This document shows positions 1 to 28,138 of a stretch of DNA of 64,000 bases, piece after piece. Numbering within the stretch: the stretch's first letter is position 1; every line of letters starts with the position of its first letter. The notes under the pieces are model-generated. The model was not told the DNA's origin and made no database searches. It was given only the letters and a program-made list of their open reading frames with translations. The stretch lies in the IMG/VR virus record IMGVR_UViG_3300031857_015178. One strand, written 5' to 3'. A program made the translations under genes and the position numbers. The DNA comes from an uncultured virus (IMG/VR IMGVR_UViG_3300031857_015178). Its lineage: Duplodnaviria > Heunggongvirae > Uroviricota > Caudoviricetes.

Positions 1-37
1 GGAACCGACTAGATGGGTTCAATTCCCATACGGCACC
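1..37 (+). tRNA. 3' part of a tRNA, probably tRNA-His (truncated by window edge)
   Basis: T-arm ATGGG-TTCAATT-CCCAT, acceptor 3' strand ACGGCAC plus a C discriminator typical of His; most of the anticodon lies outside the window. Confidence 0.6.
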
Positions 38-39
38 CC

Positions 40-111
40 GCCCTTATAGCTCAGTGGTAGAGCAACTCACTAGTAATGAGTAGGTCGTTGGTTCAAATCC
101 GACTGAGGGCT
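40..111 (+). tRNA. tRNA-Thr(AGT)
   Basis: Cloverleaf; ACTCA-CTAGTAA-TGAGT anticodon arm; GGTTCAAATCC T-arm. Confidence 0.9.
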
Positions 112-183
112 TCTGAGGTCGCCAAGTGGTAAGGCAGCGGGTTTTGGTCCCGCCATTCGTGGGTTCGAATCCTACCCTCAGAA
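112..183 (+). tRNA. tRNA-Gln(TTG)
   Basis: GCGGG-TTTTGGT-CCCGC anticodon arm; TCTGAGG/CCTCAGA acceptor. Confidence 0.92.
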
Positions 184-186
184 CTT

Positions 187-259
187 GTCCTTTTAGCTCA
201 GTGGAATAGAGCAGTAGGCTACGAACCTATGTGCGGGAGTTCAAATCTCTCAAAGGACG
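187..259 (+). tRNA. tRNA-Arg(ACG)
   Basis: Anticodon loop CTACGAA; GTCCTTT/AAAGGAC acceptor. Confidence 0.92.
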
Positions 260-260
260 C

Positions 261-289
261 TTGACAGATTCGGTTGAATCTGTTACTAT
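261..289 (+). promoter_or_regulatory. sigma70-type promoter overlapped by an inverted repeat
   Basis: TTGACA-17-TACTAT; ACAGATTC/GAATCTGT palindrome across the spacer. Confidence 0.7.
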
Positions 290-296
290 ATAAAAC

Positions 297-451
297 GATA
301 GAGGGTAAGTCCCTGTTATATCCTTATGAGGTATATCACACTTACTCCATCAAACGTAGGAAGTGCAACCCCTCTCTCTGGTCCTAGTATTCTGTGTCTA
401 GATGAAGGGAAAGGTGATTTTGTCCGCACATAGAGATCCCTCCTACCACCA
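297..451 (+). ncRNA. candidate structured ncRNA(s) between tRNAs
   Basis: Long hairpin 297-351; second domain closed by GTAGGA/TCCTAC and ending CACCA; lies right after a promoter. Confidence 0.4.
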
Positions 452-452
452 A

Positions 453-534
453 GTCGATGTGGCGGAATTGGTAGACGCGCTGGGTTTAGGTTCCAGTGAG
501 GCAACTCGTGGGGGTTCAAGTCCTCTCATCGACA
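453..534 (+). tRNA. tRNA-Leu(TAG)
   Basis: Anticodon loop TTTAGGT, long variable arm, GTCGATG/CATCGAC acceptor. Confidence 0.92.
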
Positions 535-535
535 C

Positions 536-564
536 TTGACAAACTATCAAAAGTTTGTTACTAT
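536..564 (+). promoter_or_regulatory. sigma70-type promoter overlapped by an inverted repeat
   Basis: TTGACA-17-TACTAT; ACAAACT/AGTTTGT palindrome. Confidence 0.7.
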
Positions 565-576
565 ATAAAAAACAAA

Positions 577-634
577 TCCTAAAGTCTAAAAGGTAGAAGT
601 TTATAACTTGTAGGTTCGAATCCTACTTTGGGAA
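577..634 (+). ncRNA. miniature tRNA-like element (58 nt)
   Basis: TCCTAAA/TTTGGGA acceptor, canonical GTAGG-TTCGAAT-CCTAC T-arm, shrunken D and anticodon arms. Confidence 0.6.
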
Positions 635-786
635 TTGGCAATTATAGAACCGCCACTTTATAATTGCCAAATAGGTATCTATGGAACGGCCATTCTGTAG
701 ATGCCAAACCTAGCAACTAAAGAACCGCCATTCTGAAGTTGCTATAACTTGGAAAACACAAAACACCGCCACGTTTTGTGTTTTCC
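635..786 (+). repeat. array of four hairpins with a conserved ACCGCCAY-type loop
   Basis: Hairpins 635-670, 674-705, 711-744, 751-786; loops ACCGCCAC, ACGGCCAT, ACCGCCAT, ACCGCCAC; stems unrelated in sequence. Confidence 0.85.
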
Positions 787-790
787 TCCT

Positions 791-862
791 GCGGAGTTAG
801 TTCAGCGGTAGAACGCTATCCTTCCAAGTTAGATGTCGTCGGTTCGATTCCGATACTCCGCT
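791..862 (+). tRNA. tRNA-Gly(TCC)
   Basis: Anticodon loop CTTCCAA; GCGGAGT/ACTCCGC acceptor, U73. Confidence 0.92.
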
Positions 863-863
863 C

Positions 864-970
864 TTGGTAGTCCCTAGCGATTAACTAGGTAGACGCCAAA
901 GGAAGTTAAGTCAAAGAAACGAGACAAGCAGACAATGCCCTTTGAACTGGTGTAAGTCCAGTAACTTCCT
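864..970 (+). ncRNA. hairpin (864-899) plus tRNA-like element (901-970)
   Basis: GGAAGTT/AACTTCC acceptor-like stem stacked on an ACTGG-TGTAAGT-CCAGT T-like arm; internal TCAAAG/CTTTGA stem. Confidence 0.5.
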
Positions 971-974
971 TCAT

Positions 975-1049
975 TCCACAATGGCGCAGCGGTAGCGCAG
1001 ATGACTGTTAATCATTTGGTCCCTGGTTCGAATCCAGGTTGTGGAGCCA
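975..1049 (+). tRNA. tRNA-Asn(GTT)
   Basis: Anticodon loop CTGTTAA; encoded CCA. Confidence 0.93.
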
Positions 1050-1050
1050 C

Positions 1051-1122
1051 GGGCGATTAACTCAGCGGTAGAGTGCCTCCTTTACACGGAGTAGGTCGGC
1101 GGTTCGAATCCGTCATCGCCCA
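1051..1122 (+). tRNA. tRNA-Val(TAC)
   Basis: Anticodon loop TTTACAC; GGGCGAT/ATCGCCC acceptor. Confidence 0.93.
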
Positions 1123-1140
1123 TATATAAAGTAAAAAAAT

Positions 1141-1470
1141 ATGATACACGAAAGACCTTGGGGAACTTATGAAATTCTTCTAGAAGAAGAAAATTATAAA
1201 GTTAAAAGAATCGTAGTTAATCCTTATCAGCAGTTCTCTCTACAGTATCACAATCATAGAGATGAATACTGGACTATTGTTGATGGATCTGGAAAAGTAA
1301 TTATTGATGGAACTGAATACTCAACTTCTTCAAAGACTTCATATTATATACAAAAACAATCCGTTCATAGAGCATCTGCCGACAGTGATGGTCTGACCTT
1401 TATTGAAGTTCAGGTTGGTAATTGTGATGAAGACGACATAGTAAGATTGCAAGATGACTATGGAAGATAG
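1141..1470 (+). CDS. mannose-6-phosphate isomerase type II (cupin) domain protein
   Basis: RPWG-YE...YKVKRIVV-P...SLQYHNHRDEYW...FIEVQ...EDDIVRLQDDYGR motifs. Confidence 0.85.
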   Translation: MIHERPWGTYEILLEEENYKVKRIVVNPYQQFSLQYHNHRDEYWTIVDGSGKVIIDGTEYSTSSKTSYYIQKQSVHRASADSDGLTFIEVQVGNCDEDDIVRLQDDYGR

Positions 1471-1497
1471 TTGCATAAATATTTCAAAAAGAGTATA

Positions 1498-1932
1498 ATG
1501 GAAAAACTTTATAAACTCTTAAGTGATGCTCAGTCATCACTTTTTGTTTTATTCCATAAAACCTGGGCTTTTCATTGGAATGTTGTTGGTGAAGATTTCA
1601 CTCAACTTCATCAACTCTTTGGCGGTCAATATGAGACTATGTTTGAAGAGATTGATCGTCTCTCCGAGCATATGCGTTATTTGAACGTAAAACCTCTTAG
1701 TTCTCTTTCAAGAATGCTTGAGGTAACTCAAATCAAAGAAGCAGCAAGTTCAACAGGAGCAAAAGAAATGCTTCAAGAACTTCTTGATAACAATACCAAG
1801 TTTTGTGAACTGATGCAAGAGATTTCGGAAGAGTCTGAAAATCAAAAGTCATATGCTACTGCCAATCTAGTTCAAGATTTAATGGAGTCTCATGGCAAAT
1901 TTGTTTGGATGTTAAGATCGCACTTACAATGA
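1498..1932 (+). CDS. dps: Dps/ferritin-like DNA protection protein
   Basis: HWNVVG..F..LHQLF..QY...EEIDRLSE..R and C-terminal K..WML motifs; ATG at 1498 preferred. Confidence 0.88.
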   Translation: MEKLYKLLSDAQSSLFVLFHKTWAFHWNVVGEDFTQLHQLFGGQYETMFEEIDRLSEHMRYLNVKPLSSLSRMLEVTQIKEAASSTGAKEMLQELLDNNTKFCELMQEISEESENQKSYATANLVQDLMESHGKFVWMLRSHLQ

Positions 1933-1947
1933 ATAGGATGAAGAACA

Positions 1948-2199
1948 ATGATTTCAATAAGATGTAAAGATTGTAATAAAGAATTAATAGGACACCCATC
2001 AAAAACAGTGACCTGTGGTTGTCCTAATATGGCAACAATTCGTGGAGATAAAGTTTCGGCAGTTGACTTATCTCGCATTGTTATGTTAAACTCATTAAAA
2101 GAAAGTTCAAAAACAAACGTACTCTCTTCTCAAGATATTGCTTGGCAAGAAGCACGTAGACAACGTAAAGTTCGTCGTTTGGATTTTGAAGTCCGTTGA
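1948..2199 (+). CDS. hypothetical protein with Cys-rich Zn ribbon
   Basis: CKDC...CGC motifs. Confidence 0.7.
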   Translation: MISIRCKDCNKELIGHPSKTVTCGCPNMATIRGDKVSAVDLSRIVMLNSLKESSKTNVLSSQDIAWQEARRQRKVRRLDFEVR

Positions 2200-2208
2200 G
2201 GACTTATT

Positions 2209-2295
2209 GGAAGGTCAATCCGATTGGCGACGGAACCGCTCTTGAAAAGCGTTGAGGTGTTAAAGCCCTTGGGAGTTCGACTCTCCCACCTTCCG
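2209..2295 (+). tRNA. tRNA-Ser(TGA)
   Basis: Anticodon loop CTTGAAA, long variable arm, G73. Confidence 0.9.
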
Positions 2296-2423
2296 TTTAG
2301 ATAATTTTTGTTTAGAAAAGTTACAAATTTAACAATTTCTTCAATAGTGTTACGATATGAACACAAAAAGTTGACTGTGAAATACCTGTGATTATTATAT
2401 AGTAGTATCACGGGGACGAACCG

Positions 2424-2573
2424 ATGGATCAACACACCTACGATAATTGGGTGAAGATCAAAGCAACTTTTGAAGCTTCTGGCAACACCAATAATATGTT
2501 TTACTATAGAGCATGTGAAATTGTGAAAACCAAAAGAGATCCTCTCGCAAAGTTTCTTGGAGATGATAAATGA
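2424..2573 (+). CDS. small hypothetical protein (49 aa, MDQHTYDNWVKIK...)
   Basis: Read from sequence; GGGGA RBS; coupled to the next ORF. Confidence 0.65.
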   Translation: MDQHTYDNWVKIKATFEASGNTNNMFYYRACEIVKTKRDPLAKFLGDDK

Positions 2574-2773
2574 TGCACGAACAAGAAGAATTTATTACAC
2601 GTTCTGAAGTTCAGGAGATGATCGATGCAGCAATACGACGACACAACCGTAATGCTTCTATCATTAGTATGTGCGTCGGTTGGGTGGTTCTTGCTTTATT
2701 TGCTGAGGGACTTTTGAGACTCGTTGGAGTTATTCCTCCATTACTACCATGGCTCAAAATCACTCTGAACTAA
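2570..2773 (+). CDS. hypothetical membrane protein
   Basis: ORF with hydrophobic C-terminal half. Confidence 0.65.
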   Translation: MMHEQEEFITRSEVQEMIDAAIRRHNRNASIISMCVGWVVLALFAEGLLRLVGVIPPLLPWLKITLN

Positions 2774-3039
2774 TTTTTCTAGTTCCTTGGTTTGTTCTTG
2801 TGGTGATTGCACTTACAATGTTCGTGCAAGGTTGGATGATTATGAACGCTCATCATGGGTATTCAAAAAGTCCAAAGGTAAAACATCCAGAATTAAACGA
2901 CGTTAAAGCAGGAGACCCTTTACTAGTGGTTAAATTCACCGAAGAAGATATCCAAGAACTATATCAAAGAGTTCTCCAACAAAAAATGGATGAACTCTTT
3001 GAAGAACCATCTACATACGAGGACGAAGAAGATGATTAA
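2749..3039 (+). CDS. hypothetical membrane protein (DUF2973-like)
   Basis: N-terminal TM, HPEL...GDPLLVVKF motif, acidic tail. Confidence 0.6.
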   Translation: MAQNHSELIFLVPWFVLVVIALTMFVQGWMIMNAHHGYSKSPKVKHPELNDVKAGDPLLVVKFTEEDIQELYQRVLQQKMDELFEEPSTYEDEEDD

Positions 3040-3107
3040 AACACTTTTTACACTATCAGTGATATATTTTTCTATGATTGGATTGTGGATTTATTGGGGA
3101 CTTACTC

Positions 3108-3308
3108 ATGCATACCCCCAGTAAACAGAGATATAATTTTGCAATGTCTGCTTTTGTAAGAATATACGGGCATTGCATTGTTAACAATATAGATATTAAA
3201 CAGTTTTGCAAAGAATGGTCTACTTGGGAAGTTACTGCTCCGTTACAGGGCCTTGACGAAGTGGATCAATACATGTATTATGAATACAAGAACTGGAGAG
3301 GAAGATGA
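3108..3308 (+). CDS. hypothetical protein
   Basis: ORF in the co-oriented early cluster; start uncertain. Confidence 0.55.
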   Translation: MHTPSKQRYNFAMSAFVRIYGHCIVNNIDIKQFCKEWSTWEVTAPLQGLDEVDQYMYYEYKNWRGR

Positions 3309-3421
3309 TTTTCCACTTGGTTGAAATGCTAGCGGCAAATCCTTTCTTTCTTTTTCTTTGTGGATGTGGATTGACAATCATACCATTTGCTGGTATTATG
3401 TTTATACACAAAACCAAGTAA

Positions 3422-3495
3422 CGGAATGTAGCTCAGTTTGGTAGAGCACTCGCTTTGGGAGCGAGATGTCGCAGGTTCGAATCCTGTCATTCCGA
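3422..3495 (+). tRNA. tRNA-Pro(TGG)
   Basis: Anticodon loop TTTGGGA; CGGAATG/CATTCCG acceptor. Confidence 0.93.
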
Positions 3496-3513
3496 CTCAT
3501 AAAACTTCACTTT

Positions 3514-3744
3514 ATGAAAATGTATCCAGAACTTTCAGATCTCCAAAAGTTTACAGTCGAAGAGTTTCAAGCAGATTTTGATAATCTAATAGAAAGAGTA
3601 GAAAATGGCGAATCATTTATCATTACTGATGGAGAAAGAAACGCAGTGATAGTTCCATACAACGAAACCATAAACTTTGAGATAGAACCTCGTGTGAATG
3701 ACGAACTAATACGTATTCACACTGATCACGAAGAAGGTAGTTGA
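3514..3744 (+). CDS. Phd/YefM antitoxin-like small protein
   Basis: TVEEFQADFDNLIERVENGESFIIT...AVIVP matches the Phd N-terminal pattern. Confidence 0.55.
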   Translation: MKMYPELSDLQKFTVEEFQADFDNLIERVENGESFIITDGERNAVIVPYNETINFEIEPRVNDELIRIHTDHEEGS

Positions 3745-3769
3745 CAAAGCGTTCCAGATCCGCTATTAT
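3741..3769 (+). promoter_or_regulatory. sigma70-type promoter
   Basis: TTGACA-17-TATTAT; TCCAGATC/GATCTGGA repeat brackets the -10. Confidence 0.6.
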
Positions 3770-3783
3770 AGATCTGGATTTAA

Positions 3784-3871
3784 GCGAGTGAGACTTGGTA
3801 GTCAGAGGAGTCTTATAAACTCTTTCCGCCAGATTAGCGGCTTTGAGGTGGTTCGAATCCACCCACTCGTA
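3784..3871 (+). tRNA. atypical tRNA with TAT anticodon (Ile) and long variable arm
   Basis: GCGAGTG/CACTCGT acceptor, loop CTTATAA, GGTGG-TTCGAAT-CCACC T-arm. Confidence 0.7.
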
Positions 3872-3875
3872 CCTT

Positions 3876-3948
3876 GCTCGTTTAGCAATCTGGTGAATGC
3901 ACCGATCTCATAAATCGGCATAGGTGGGATCGTTCCCCACAACGAGCA
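3876..3948 (+). tRNA. tRNA with CAT anticodon (Met or Ile2)
   Basis: CCGAT-CTCATAA-ATCGG arm; non-canonical T-loop ATCGTTC. Confidence 0.8.
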
Positions 3949-3973
3949 TAGGACAGAAACTCTTCTGTCCACC

Positions 3974-4002
3974 TTGACTTCTTCAAGTCAAACCCTTATA
4001 AT
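3974..4002 (+). promoter_or_regulatory. sigma70-type promoter
   Basis: TTGACT-17-TATAAT; TTGACTT/AAGTCAA palindrome. Confidence 0.75.
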
Positions 4003-4024
4003 ACTAAGGTCAACATTCAATACA

Positions 4025-4240
4025 ATGACTCTCACAGCAAAATTCAAGAAAGACGTTCAAACCCTCCGTGGAGCAGCAAATGGCGATTTCTACCTTGATG
4101 TAAAGAATCCGAAACTCTACAAAAAGGTTCGCCGTTACTATGAAAACGAAGGTGTAGTGTTCTCTGGTGATCCTCTGGACGACTATGAAATGCTTATGGA
4201 ATATGTTCTTGCAGATCTTGAATCCGTTGAGGTTGCATGA
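4025..4240 (+). CDS. hypothetical protein
   Basis: ATG 4025 downstream of the promoter. Confidence 0.7.
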   Translation: MTLTAKFKKDVQTLRGAANGDFYLDVKNPKLYKKVRRYYENEGVVFSGDPLDDYEMLMEYVLADLESVEVA

Positions 4241-26350: not shown

Positions 26351-27645
26351 ATGACTGCTACACTTTCACGTCAACAATCACAATCGAATATTTGGGAACA
26401 GTTCTGCAACTGGGTAACTTCAACCGACAACCGCCTCTATGTGGGTTGGTTCGGCGTTCTGATGATTCCTTGCCTGCTTGCTGCTACAACTTGTTTCATT
26501 ATCGCCTTCATCGGCGCACCACCTGTCGATATCGACGGTATCCGCGAACCAGTAGCTGGTTCTCTAATGTACGGAAACAACATCATCTCTGGTGCTGTTA
26601 TCCCTTCGTCCAACGCAATTGGACTGCACTTCTACCCCATCTGGGAAGCTGCTTCACTTGATGAGTGGCTTTACAACGGTGGTCCTTTCCAACTCGTTGT
26701 TTTCCACTTCCTCATCGGCATCTATGCCTACATGGGTCGTGAATGGGAACTTTCTTACCGTCTAGGTATGCGTCCTTGGATCTGTGTTGCTTACTCTGCA
26801 CCTGTTGCTGCTGCTTCTGCAGTGTTCCTGGTCTATCCTTTCGGTCAAGGTTCTTTCTCTGATGCAATGCCTCTTGGTATCTCTGGTACGTTTAACTACA
26901 TGCTTGTGTTCCAGGCAGAACATAACATTCTGATGCACCCCTTCCATATGCTTGGAGTTGCTGGTGTCTTCGGTGGTTCTTTGTTCAGTGCAATGCACGG
27001 TTCGCTGGTTACTTCCTCGCTGGTTCGTGAAACTACCGAGCAAGAGTCGCAGAACTATGGTTACAAGTTCGGTCAAGAAGAAGAGACTTATAACATCGTT
27101 GCTGCTCATGGTTATTTTGGACGCCTTATTTTCCAATATGCTTCCTTCAATAACTCACGTTCTCTGCACTTCTTCCTTGCTGCCTGGCCTGTTGTCGGTA
27201 TCTGGTTTACTGCCCTTGGTGTTTCTACGATGGCTTTCAATTTGAATGGCTTTAATTTCAATCAGTCAATCGTTGATAGTCAGAACCGTGTAGTTAACAC
27301 CTGGGCTGATGTACTTAACCGTGCTGGTCTCGGAATGGAGGTAATGCACGAGCGTCAAGTTGTGCTTTGCGCTCTTTAAATCGGATGAATTGCTGGAAAC
27401 CCCAAGTGGGCAATCAGCAGCCAAGTCCAGAGTACACTCTGGAAAGGTTCAGAGACTACCTGAGGGATATAGTTCCCTTAATAACAGGAATAAGCGTCCG
27501 ACACCAGAAATGGTGATGATATAGTCCAATCCTGGTAGTAATACCAGATAGTTATGGGAAGTTTAAGAATGCACACAACTTCCCTCTTGACCTTGCAGCA
27601 GCAGAAGCAACACCAGTTGCCTTGACTGCTCCCGCAATCGGTTGA
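26351..27645 (+). CDS. psbA: photosystem II D1 (exons 26351-27355 and 27568-27645; 360 aa after splicing)
   Basis: D1 sequence; splicing restores [15 protein letters not shown]. Confidence 0.97.
27356..27567 (+). mobile_element. group I intron (212 nt) in psbA
   Basis: Follows exon U and ends in G; IGS GTTGTG..GCGCTC pairs with both exons; AATTGCTGGAA, AATCAGCAG, GTTCAGAGACTA and GATATAGTCC core elements. Confidence 0.93.
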
Positions 27646-27712: not shown

Positions 27713-28138
27713 ATGACTAAACTATACTCCGACCTGTATAGAACTTGTATGACCTGTGATGTTGAGAAGCACATTACCGAGTTTTATATGCGTGATAAAA
27801 AAACTGGAAGGAGGCACTCTGCCTGCAAAGAGTGTGATAAGGCAAGGGTGAAAGCAAGGCACCAAGCAAACCCACAAAAAACAAGAAATAACGATCTAAA
27901 AAGAAACTATGGCATAACTCTTGAAGAACATACAAAAATGTTTGAAGACCAGAATGGGAGATGTGCTATTTGTAGAAATGAAGGAAATGGTAAGTGGAAG
28001 AAGTTATGTGTAGACCATTGCCATACAACTGGTAAAGTAAGAAAACTTTTATGCCATCACTGCAACACCGCACTAGGACTTGTAGGTGATAACATAGATA
28101 CCTTACATAAAATGATTGCATATCTCAATGTCTCATAA
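27713..28138 (+). CDS. free-standing endonuclease VII-type homing endonuclease (F-CphI-like)
   Basis: CxxC pairs, YGIT.E...Q.G.CAIC...VDHCHTTGKVR.LLC..CN.ALG; directly downstream of the intron-bearing psbA. Confidence 0.82.
   Translation: MTKLYSDLYRTCMTCDVEKHITEFYMRDKKTGRRHSACKECDKARVKARHQANPQKTRNNDLKRNYGITLEEHTKMFEDQNGRCAICRNEGNGKWKKLCVDHCHTTGKVRKLLCHHCNTALGLVGDNIDTLHKMIAYLNVS

What the first reader, a model, noticed from the sequence alone, without database searches (positions are those of the whole stretch)
635..786. Tandem array of four hairpins with variable stems and a conserved ACCGCCAY-type loop
Seen: four adjacent 32-36 nt hairpins with 11-14 bp stems. Their 8-nt loops are ACCGCCAC (649), ACGGCCAT (686), ACCGCCAT (724) and ACCGCCAC (765), at a 37-41 nt period. 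Stem sequences differ completely yet stay paired, and several G-T pairs work only as + strand RNA, so the array shows covariation internally. It lies under its own promoter between a mini-tRNA and tRNA-Gly. This is the inverse of CRISPR logic and I do not recognise it as a named family. Inference: a multivalent RNA displaying one motif. It could be a CsrB-like protein sponge, a mimic of tRNA 3' ends (CCGCCA equals C-C-G73-CCA) decoying tRNA-targeting defence toxins, or a kissing-loop partner.
Basis: partly seen in the sequence, partly recalled or inferred. Interest (0 to 1): 0.85.

Follow-up and report, generated by a model that had tools for sequence, protein, structure and literature searches.

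The report
Four promoter-derived hairpins sharing one loop
A freshwater cyanophage carries, in front of its glycine tRNA gene, four back-to-back hairpins that descend from the phage's own palindromic promoters yet all show the same short C-rich loop, which suggests a small RNA that presents four copies of one binding motif, though its partner and its expression are unproven.

Summary
Window 635-786 has four strong hairpins (12-14 bp; the third has a 2x2 internal loop) with loops ACCGCCAC, ACGGCCAT, ACCGCCAT and ACCGCCAC. These are the only four matches to that motif in 64 kb. Pairing is kept through two-sided changes at 11 of 14 stem positions, and the + strand folds better.

New here: the stems are not unrelated. 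All four align in register with the palindromic sigma-70 promoter/stem-loop cassettes that precede tRNA genes in this clade, which resemble the PeSL elements of T4-like phages. Close relatives have one 38-nt cassette between tRNA-Leu and tRNA-Gly. This lineage has 255 nt: a promoter, a 58-nt truncated tRNA and four copies. Copy 1 keeps near-consensus hexamers. Copies 2-4 lost them but kept pairing and the loop. None of 207 related promoters carries that loop.

Most likely (about 0.4) it is a + strand leader RNA, cut out at the flanking tRNA structures, that displays four identical loops to an unknown partner. Rivals are decayed promoter/terminator copies or DNA protein sites.

No Rfam match. 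The array occurs only in near-identical contigs, and no RNA evidence covers it. An earlier scan note described the truncated tRNA on other DNA. This is a new variant of a known kind, of moderate interest.

The parts
453..535 (+). tRNA-Leu(TAG), the upstream neighbour. Its nt 7-13 (window 459-465) are complementary to 7 loop letters (CCGCCAC).
   Evidence: ARAGORN; Rfam tRNA; sequence
536..564 (+). Sigma-70-type promoter P2, TTGACA-17-TACTAT, with a palindromic spacer. It sits where relatives have the tRNA-Gly promoter.
   Evidence: 10 of 12; alignment A3; near-duplicate of the promoter at 261-289
577..634 (+). 58-nt truncated tRNA-like element: a 7-bp acceptor stem (577-583 with 627-633), a T arm at 610-626 and discriminator A634. 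It has no D arm and a collapsed anticodon arm.
   Evidence: sequence. Not called by ARAGORN or by Rfam tRNA even at E<=10. The fold is weak, z = -1.64. Earlier scan note e1-5403507.
635..670 (+). Hairpin 1: 14 bp, loop ACCGCCAC. It also reads as promoter TTGGCA-18-TATAAT on both strands.
   Evidence: in-register alignment to tRNA promoters in A4
674..705 (+). Hairpin 2: 12-13 bp with three G-U pairs, loop ACGGCCAT. Promoter hexamers decayed.
   Evidence: (-14.9 on + against -6.7 on -)
711..744 (+). Hairpin 3: 8+4 bp with a 2x2 internal loop, loop ACCGCCAT. Promoter hexamers decayed.
751..786 (+). Hairpin 4: 14 perfect bp, loop ACCGCCAC. Its 3' arm aligns with the 3' arm (-10 region) of the relatives' tRNA-Gly promoter palindrome.
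791..863 (+). tRNA-Gly(TCC). Its 5' end would define the 3' end of the array RNA through RNase P (inferred).
   Evidence: ARAGORN; Rfam

Best explanation
The array is a + strand RNA element made from recycled promoter palindromes.

In this clade of freshwater T4-like cyanophages most tRNA genes have their own sigma-70 promoter. The -35 tail and the -10 region of that promoter form the two arms of a hairpin, a compact version of the promoter/stem-loop (PeSL) cassettes of T4-like phages.

In this lineage the single cassette between tRNA-Leu and tRNA-Gly has become a 255-nt module: a promoter, a truncated tRNA and four cassette copies. Copy 1 still looks like a promoter. Copies 2-4 have lost the -35 and -10 hexamers but keep their pairing, including G-U pairs that work only on the + strand. 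All four carry the same C-rich loop, CCGCCA or CGGCCA.

Shown: the structure, the homology to promoters, the indel, the loop-versus-arm conservation and the uniqueness of the loop.

Inferred:
- The module is transcribed from P2 (and perhaps from copy 1) as the leader of tRNA-Gly.
- tRNA-processing enzymes cut after A634 (RNase Z at the tRNA-like element) and before G791 (RNase P).
- This frees a 156-nt RNA (635-790) whose four identical loops bind several copies of one partner, either a G-rich RNA stretch (UGGCGG-like) or a protein, as a sponge or decoy.

The partner is unknown.
For: Four hairpins, z = -9.96.

Pairing is kept at 92.9% of cells, with 11 of 14 pairs changed on both sides and 0 of 500 shuffles as high.

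The loop is conserved at 6 of 8 columns against 4 of 28 in the arms, p = 0.0024. H1 and H4 share 7 of 28 arm letters but 8 of 8 loop letters.

The + strand is favoured. All 4 wobble cells are G-U on +, and the summed hairpin energies are -59.7 on + against -50.5 on -.

The array runs in the same direction as all 13 tRNAs. It lies between promoter P2 and tRNA-Gly, so any tRNA-Gly transcript from P2 must contain it.

H1 starts one base after the discriminator of the tRNA-like element, and H4 ends 4 nt before tRNA-Gly.

The loop motif is absent from 207 of 207 related promoters and from the rest of the window.

The -35 of H1 reads TTGGCA with a matching TGCCAA in the other arm, where the family has TTGACA with TTGTC. 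This two-sided change weakens the promoter but keeps the pair.

Precedents: T4 makes two small RNAs of unknown role from its tRNA region (PMC3014915, passage read). A mouse herpesvirus makes tRNA-like + hairpin RNAs cut by tRNase Z (PMC4838037, passage read).
Against: No transcript evidence exists.

The array is known only from near-identical DNA: two IMG/VR contigs and lake metagenome contigs with 0 and 3 differences over about 310-350 nt. There is therefore no cross-species test of loop or pairing.

The 'covariation' is among paralogous copies. Their ancestors were already palindromic for another reason, so part of it may be inherited rather than selected here.

Close relatives do without the module.

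The tRNA-like element is not recognised by ARAGORN or Rfam and folds weakly, so its processing is a guess.

No partner was found. 6-7-nt complements of the loop are common by chance in the GC-rich hosts.
Confidence: 0.4

Rival explanations
1. The hairpins are decayed promoter/terminator cassettes. They would be tandem, slipped copies of the PeSL-like palindrome left by recombination. At most they act as generic stem-loops (attenuator, insulator or 3'-end protection) between the truncated tRNA and tRNA-Gly. The shared loop has no partner.
For: All four align in register with the clade's palindromic tRNA promoters. H4's 3' arm aligns with the relatives' promoter arm.

Palindromy is a family trait: 61 of 93 tRNA-proximal promoters fold at -6 kcal/mol or better. 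Of 207 promoters, 39% do so against 13% of shuffles, p = 4e-12.

The module is an indel relative to L337 and L347. One lake DNA contig joins 532 to 788 (one contig, side 30, a weak hint).

The PeSL papers describe stem-loops that terminate, an association with indels, and clusters of degraded copies with intact stem-loops (PMC2839356 and PMC4122927, passages read).

The truncated tRNA beside the array also looks like decay.
Against: Neutral decay does not explain why the loop stays fixed (8 of 8 between H1 and H4) while the arms fall to 7 of 28. It also does not explain why pairing survives the loss of both hexamers in H2-H4.

The loops of the other promoter palindromes vary freely, and none of 207 has this motif.

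No hairpin is followed by a T run. The terminator scan found none at 635-790.

Four terminators in front of tRNA-Gly, with no good promoter after them, would silence it.
Confidence: 0.3
2. The array acts as DNA sites, not RNA. The conserved 11-bp core GAACSGCCAYT, repeated four times at 37-41 bp, would bind a phage or host protein. Candidates are a regulator of the tRNA-Gly/H1 promoter, or a recombination or nuclease target in hairpin or cruciform DNA.
For: The conserved block extends 2-3 bp beyond the loop into the stem in H1-H3. In H1 it lies in the promoter spacer. The PeSL authors speculated that their stem-loop might be a target of a DNA-binding recombination protein, and they mapped one crossover inside a loop (PMC2839356, passage read). 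The module is an indel hotspot.
Against: A double-strand binding site needs no flanking inverted repeat and no compensatory changes. The G-T positions make imperfect palindromes that pair only on one strand. Only H1 has usable promoter hexamers. No candidate binding protein was identified among the 69 window ORFs that were scanned.
Confidence: 0.12
3. This is a specific form of the RNA reading. The loops pair with nt 7-13 (G/A-UGGCGG) of leucine tRNAs of phage and host, and bind tRNA-Leu, its precursors or its 5' fragments.
For: The loop letters CCGCCAC are the exact complement of nt 7-13 of the adjacent phage tRNA-Leu(TAG) (window 459-465). The same letters sit at the same tRNA positions in host-type Synechococcus tRNA-Leu(CAG) and (TAA). 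ATGGCGGAATTGGT, which the loop variant ending in T would match, also occurs in 3 of the 5 host-type genomes, but those hits were not checked to be tRNAs.
Against: This was found after the fact among many possible targets. In five host-type genomes the pattern is no more frequent than its reversed control. These nucleotides are buried in the D stem and core of a folded tRNA (established tRNA structure). The ACGGCCAT variant has no matching phage tRNA in the window. Both GTGGCCGA hits that were checked in one host genome were not tRNAs, but the pattern used was not suited to serine tRNAs.
Confidence: 0.05
4. One reading: the loops mimic tRNA 3' ends (C-C-G73-CCA) and soak up tRNA-targeting defence toxins.
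For: The letters GCCA occur in every loop. The setting is a tRNA cluster that also holds a weak Phd/YefM antitoxin-like ORF at 3466-3744 (25.8 bits, below the Pfam cut-off of 29.8).
Against: A closed loop has no free 3' hydroxyl, which the known acceptor-end-modifying toxins act on (recalled knowledge, not tested). No cleavage that would expose a CCA end is predicted. The motif is confined to one narrow lineage.
Confidence: 0.04

Closest known systems
PeSLs (promoter-early stem-loops) of T4-like phages (Arbiol et al. 2010, PMC2839356; Comeau et al. 2014, PMC4122927; passages read)
   Same: A sigma-70-like early promoter is combined with a stem-loop. The elements are intergenic, lie in plastic regions, occur in many copies per genome and are tied to insertions and deletions. 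Degraded tandem copies that still form stem-loops are described.
   Different: In PeSLs the stem-loop lies beside the promoter. Here the arms are the -35 tail and the -10 region themselves. PeSL stems are conserved (for example G-run / C-run) and a shared loop is not a feature. In this array the loop is conserved and the stems vary. PeSLs flank ORFs, whereas these flank tRNAs. A cyanophage paper judged PeSLs sparse in S-PM2 (PMC4503421, passage read).
RNAC and RNAD, small RNAs from the phage T4 tRNA region (review PMC3014915, passage read)
   Same: Small non-tRNA RNAs encoded inside the tRNA cluster of a T4-type phage, with unknown role.
   Different: I recall no tandem identical loops in them (recalled, not checked).
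TMERs of murine gammaherpesvirus 68 (PMC4838037, passage read)
   Same: A virus-encoded tRNA-like element directly followed by hairpins on one transcript. tRNase Z separates the two.
   Different: TMERs are eukaryotic Pol III transcripts, their hairpins are Dicer substrates that yield miRNAs, and there are two hairpins without a common loop. Nothing of that machinery exists in cyanobacteria.
CsrB/RsmZ-type protein sponges and the tRNA-spacer sponge 3'ETS-leuZ (recalled; for the latter only search listings were seen)
   Same: One RNA carries many copies of a short motif in hairpin loops to titrate a partner. In the leuZ case the sponge is cut from a tRNA precursor.
   Different: The CsrB motif is GGA, whereas here it is CCGCCA. 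No CsrA-type protein or sRNA partner is known or was found here. The resemblance is by analogy only.

Membership tests
PeSL-like promoter/stem-loop cassette | sigma-70-like -35 and -10 hexamers at about 17-nt spacing | tested here: inconclusive
   H1: TTGGCA-18-TATAAT, 11 of 12. In H2-H4 the aligned hexamers match the consensus poorly by my eye, and none is listed by the promoter scans.
PeSL-like promoter/stem-loop cassette | adjacent stable stem-loop | tested here: met
   All four fold at -12.0 to -17.9 kcal/mol. The stem overlaps the promoter rather than flanking it.
PeSL-like promoter/stem-loop cassette | stem-loop terminates transcription | not testable with these tools
   No T run after any hairpin, and the terminator scan lists none at 635-790. 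This needs a reporter assay.
PeSL-like promoter/stem-loop cassette | repeated through plastic regions and sited at indels between close relatives | tested here: met
   207 distinct promoters in 141 related loci are enriched for hairpins. The window has a 255-nt module where L337 and L347 have 38 nt.
Any Rfam family | covariance-model match | tested here: not met
   No match at gathering score. At E<=10 the only hit is mir-290, 17.2 bits, E 9.8, on H4.
CsrB/RsmZ-type sponge | multiple GGA motifs in loops, and a CsrA/RsmA partner | tested here: not met
   The loops are ACCGCCAC, ACGGCCAT, ACCGCCAT and ACCGCCAC. The presence of a partner was not tested.
CRISPR array | identical direct repeats separated by variable spacers | tested here: not met
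   The conserved part is 8-11 nt inside variable inverted repeats.
tRNA (for the 577-634 element) | cloverleaf with D, anticodon and T arms | tested here: not met
   Not called by ARAGORN or by Rfam tRNA at E<=10. Only the acceptor stem and the T arm are present.
Intrinsic terminator | G+C-rich hairpin followed by a T run | tested here: not met
   One search finds two terminator-like sites in 1-4200, and neither is in the array.

The most novel reading that the evidence does not exclude
A phage has turned spare copies of its own promoter palindromes into a tRNA-punctuated small RNA. RNase Z and RNase P free a 156-nt molecule with four identical CCGCCA loops. It acts as a multivalent trap, for example for the conserved G/A-UGGCGG segment of leucine tRNAs or their fragments, or for a host RNA-binding protein. 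That would be a phage-made RNA sponge in a T4-type phage, where a 2010 review says no trans-acting small RNA had been functionally characterised (PMC3014915, passage read).
Probability: 0.12. Interest if true: 0.8.

Novelty: new variant of a known kind. Interest (0 to 1): 0.45.

Why it matters
If the loops have a partner, this would be a clear case of regulatory DNA (promoter palindromes) being reused as a structured RNA. It would also be a rare candidate for a trans-acting small RNA in a T4-type phage, set in the tRNA cluster where T4's own RNAC and RNAD remain unexplained.

Even if it is only decay, the finding documents something apparently unreported in the papers searched. Freshwater cyanophage tRNA genes carry individual promoters whose -35 and -10 regions pair with each other, and these cassettes mark the points where tRNA clusters gain and lose pieces.

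Tried and rejected
**Relatives by loop pattern**
Only 1 of the 121, a near-identical contig, has stems around the motif. The rest look like coding or simple repeats.
- The two-loop pattern with closing bases gave 17 stretches, a complete scan. 2 of the 17 carry the array, and both are near-identical.
0 of the 116 carry it. One unrelated 36-nt tandem repeat turned up. A saturated scan is no proof of absence.

**Relatives by similarity**
- blastn of 250-1130 and of 536-790 against 50,697 phage records found only tRNA hits and chance hits.

**Relatives by covariance model**
- R1 was built from the 4 hairpins. It found nothing else in the window.
- It found nothing in 27 loci around cupin homologues except the two known contigs.
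- It found nothing in 80 cyanophage tRNA loci, 393 kb; the best hit had E = 2.
- It found nothing else in the 122-kb near-identical contig.
- My own scan for clusters of 3 or more perfect hairpins in 148 loci found none with shared loops. That scan also misses the window's own array, because of H3's internal loop.

**Nearest held virus record**
- G001 lacks the region.

**Expression**
- RNA-library contigs of X15 and X16 gave no cover over 651-770. They are contigs, so this says nothing either way.

**Targets**
- A 7-nt complement in the PhotoRC-II leader of psbA lies in a variable stem of that motif, so it was dropped.
- No complementary loop exists elsewhere.
- In host genomes the complement pattern is as common as its reversed control.

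**Other**
- The idea that the whole promoter family shows + strand G-U bias failed. Across 207 promoters the - strand folds slightly better. No ORF of 30 aa or more spans the array.

Full report
**Setting.** The window is a T4-like cyanomyovirus. Rfam finds wcaG RNA, PhotoRC-II and a group I intron in psbA. Pfam finds psbA, psbD, gp32, gp59, PhoH, ThyX and baseplate proteins. ARAGORN finds 13 tRNAs, all on the + strand, and 11 of them lie in the first 4 kb.

Public runs that hold the stretch are mostly labelled freshwater or lake water. 14 of the 24 listed runs hold half or more of the sampled words. The closest psbD genes are from Cyanobium and freshwater Synechococcus. No isolate in the phage collection is close; core genes are about 75% identical.

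**The observation.**
- As + strand RNA, 626-790 folds into exactly these four stems: -67.1 kcal/mol, z = -9.96, 0 of 200 shuffles as good.
- The motif ACSGCCAY occurs four times in 64 kb on either strand, and all four are the loops.
- Aligned on their loops (A2), 92.9% of 56 stem cells pair. 11 of 14 pairs show changes on both sides. No shuffle out of 500 reaches this, and slid registers pair at only 35-46%.
- The four wobble cells are all G-U on the + strand. H2 loses 8 kcal/mol on the - strand.
- The loop is conserved at 6 of 8 columns and the arms at 4 of 28 (p = 0.0024).
- No ORF of 30 aa or more spans the region, and no Rfam family matches.

So the structure is real and non-random.

**Where it comes from.** This is the main new result.
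- Two IMG/VR contigs whose flanks are 97-98% identical to the window (L337 and L347) have only 38 nt between tRNA-Leu and tRNA-Gly. That stretch is a sigma-70 promoter: TTGACA, a 17-nt spacer, TATGAT. Its -35 tail pairs with its -10 region (A3).
- The window has 255 nt there. P2 sits where the relatives' -35 is. It is followed by a 58-nt truncated tRNA and by H1-H4. H4's 3' arm aligns with the relatives' -10 arm.
- One lake DNA contig joins 532 to 788. This fits such a relative, but it is a weak hint.
- When H1-H4 are aligned with ten promoters (eight from relatives, plus the window's own P1 and P2), H1 matches in register. It reads TTGGCAATTATA ... TATAATTGCC, against TTGACAATTATA ... TATAATTGTC before tRNA-Gly in L264 (A4).
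- The promoter scan independently scores H1 at 11 of 12.
- H2-H4 keep the frame but not the hexamers.

**The family behind it.** In 142 sequences (141 related loci and the first 5 kb of the window; 725 tRNAs by ARAGORN) I found 93 distinct promoters within 70 nt upstream of a tRNA. 61 of them fold at -6 kcal/mol or better. Of 207 distinct TTGACW-N17 promoters in the 141 related loci, 39% fold that well against 13% of shuffles (p = 4e-12). Their stems are conserved or covary, and their loops vary freely.

This is close to the PeSL concept of Arbiol et al. and Comeau et al. PeSLs are sigma-70 promoter plus terminator stem-loop cassettes that sit at indels in T4-like phages, sometimes as clusters of degraded copies (passages read). 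Here, however, the stem and the promoter overlap.

Across the family the - strand folds slightly better, so a general + strand RNA role is not shown.

**What is special about the array.** None of the 207 family promoters contains CCGCCA or CGGCCA. The covariance model built from the four hairpins finds nothing else:
- in the window;
- in 27 loci around cupin homologues, apart from the two known contigs;
- in 80 tRNA-cluster loci;
- in the 122-kb near-identical contig.

Within the array the roles are reversed. The arms have drifted to 7 of 28 shared letters between H1 and H4, while the loop is identical at 8 of 8. The -35 change A to G in H1 is matched by T to C in the partner arm, which hurts the promoter and saves the pair. 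Neutral decay of duplicated cassettes does not predict this, but selection on a hairpin that shows a fixed loop does.

**Mechanism.** The array lies between the only good upstream promoters and tRNA-Gly, so it must be part of the tRNA-Gly precursor if that gene is expressed from them. This is inferred.

The tRNA-like element has a 7-bp acceptor stem, a canonical T arm and discriminator A634. H1 begins at 635, and H4 ends 4 nt before G791 of tRNA-Gly. RNase Z and RNase P would then release a 156-nt RNA. This too is inferred, because neither ARAGORN nor Rfam accepts the element as a tRNA.

Four identical exposed loops suggest multivalent binding. I put about 0.4 on this reading, 0.3 on decayed or merely structural promoter/terminator copies, and 0.12 on DNA-level protein sites. 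Small shares go to two specific partner ideas.

**Candidate partners.** The loop letters complement nt 7-13 of the neighbouring tRNA-Leu. They also complement host-type tRNA-Leu(CAG) and (TAA) at the same positions. This was found after the fact, the pattern is no commoner than its reversed control in host genomes, and those bases are buried in a folded tRNA. A match in the psbA leader falls in a variable stem and was dropped. The tRNA 3'-end mimic idea lacks a free end.

**Limits.**
- The array is known only from near-identical DNA: two IMG/VR contigs and lake contigs with 0 and 3 differences.
- The RNA libraries that were laid are contigs and do not cover the array, so expression is open.
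- Literature searches found no description of such an array or of palindromic tRNA promoters in cyanophages. Only listings, abstracts and the cited passages were read.
- An earlier scan note (e1-5403507) described the truncated tRNA on another genome and likewise proposed a processing signal or a relic. I reached the same view from the sequence. It is not independent evidence.

**Verdict.** This is a real, unusual hairpin array with a mundane origin and an unexplained conserved loop. It is a new variant of a known kind (PeSL-like cassettes), with interest about 0.45.

Noticed in passing
window 290-452: An unannotated element of about 160 nt under its own promoter (261-289), upstream of tRNA-Leu. 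Its first 65 nt are conserved upstream of tRNA-Ala in at least three isolates (S-CREM1, S-RIM8, S-RIM32), and also matches S-SRM01 and S-SZBM1. blastn gave 140 hits among the held loci. Contigs from two RNA libraries cover 297-382 and 297-354. No Rfam match. It is a candidate conserved cyanophage ncRNA.
   Followed up: partly
window 864-974: The 111-nt spacer between tRNA-Gly and tRNA-Asn is conserved at 93-100% in 24 held loci. RNA-library contigs cover 891-976 with 1 difference, and 801-1023. No ORF and no Rfam match.
   Followed up: partly
window 261-289, 536-564, 3741-3769, 3974-4002; loci L264, L291, L301 and others: tRNA genes of this phage clade mostly have individual sigma-70 promoters whose -35 tail and -10 region (or flanks) form a hairpin. 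C/T in the 5' arm covaries with G/A in the -10 (TATGAT against TATAAT), with T-G intermediates.
   Followed up: yes
window 3466-3744 (+): A 92-aa ORF between tRNA-Pro and the next tRNA has a weak Phd/YefM antitoxin match (E 9e-6, 25.8 bits, below the cut-off of 29.8).
   Followed up: no
window 3784-3873 (+): A 90-nt tRNA called Ile(TAT) by ARAGORN, with the anticodon at an unusual position. Its best Rfam model is tRNA-Sec at 34 bits, below threshold. Homologues in relatives are 72-90 nt.
   Followed up: no
window 453-535 against L021/L124: tRNA-Leu differs from the near-identical contig only in its variable arm (a block replacement). The 290-452 element also differs there. This suggests mosaic recombination inside the cluster.
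   Followed up: no
window 27346-27548 and 27713-28138: A group I intron lies in psbA, followed by an Endonuclease VII-family ORF. I recall this arrangement from other cyanophages.
   Followed up: no
L195 1450-1575: An unrelated metagenome contig has a 36-nt perfect tandem repeat that contains ACGGCCAT with 5-bp flanking stems.
   Followed up: no
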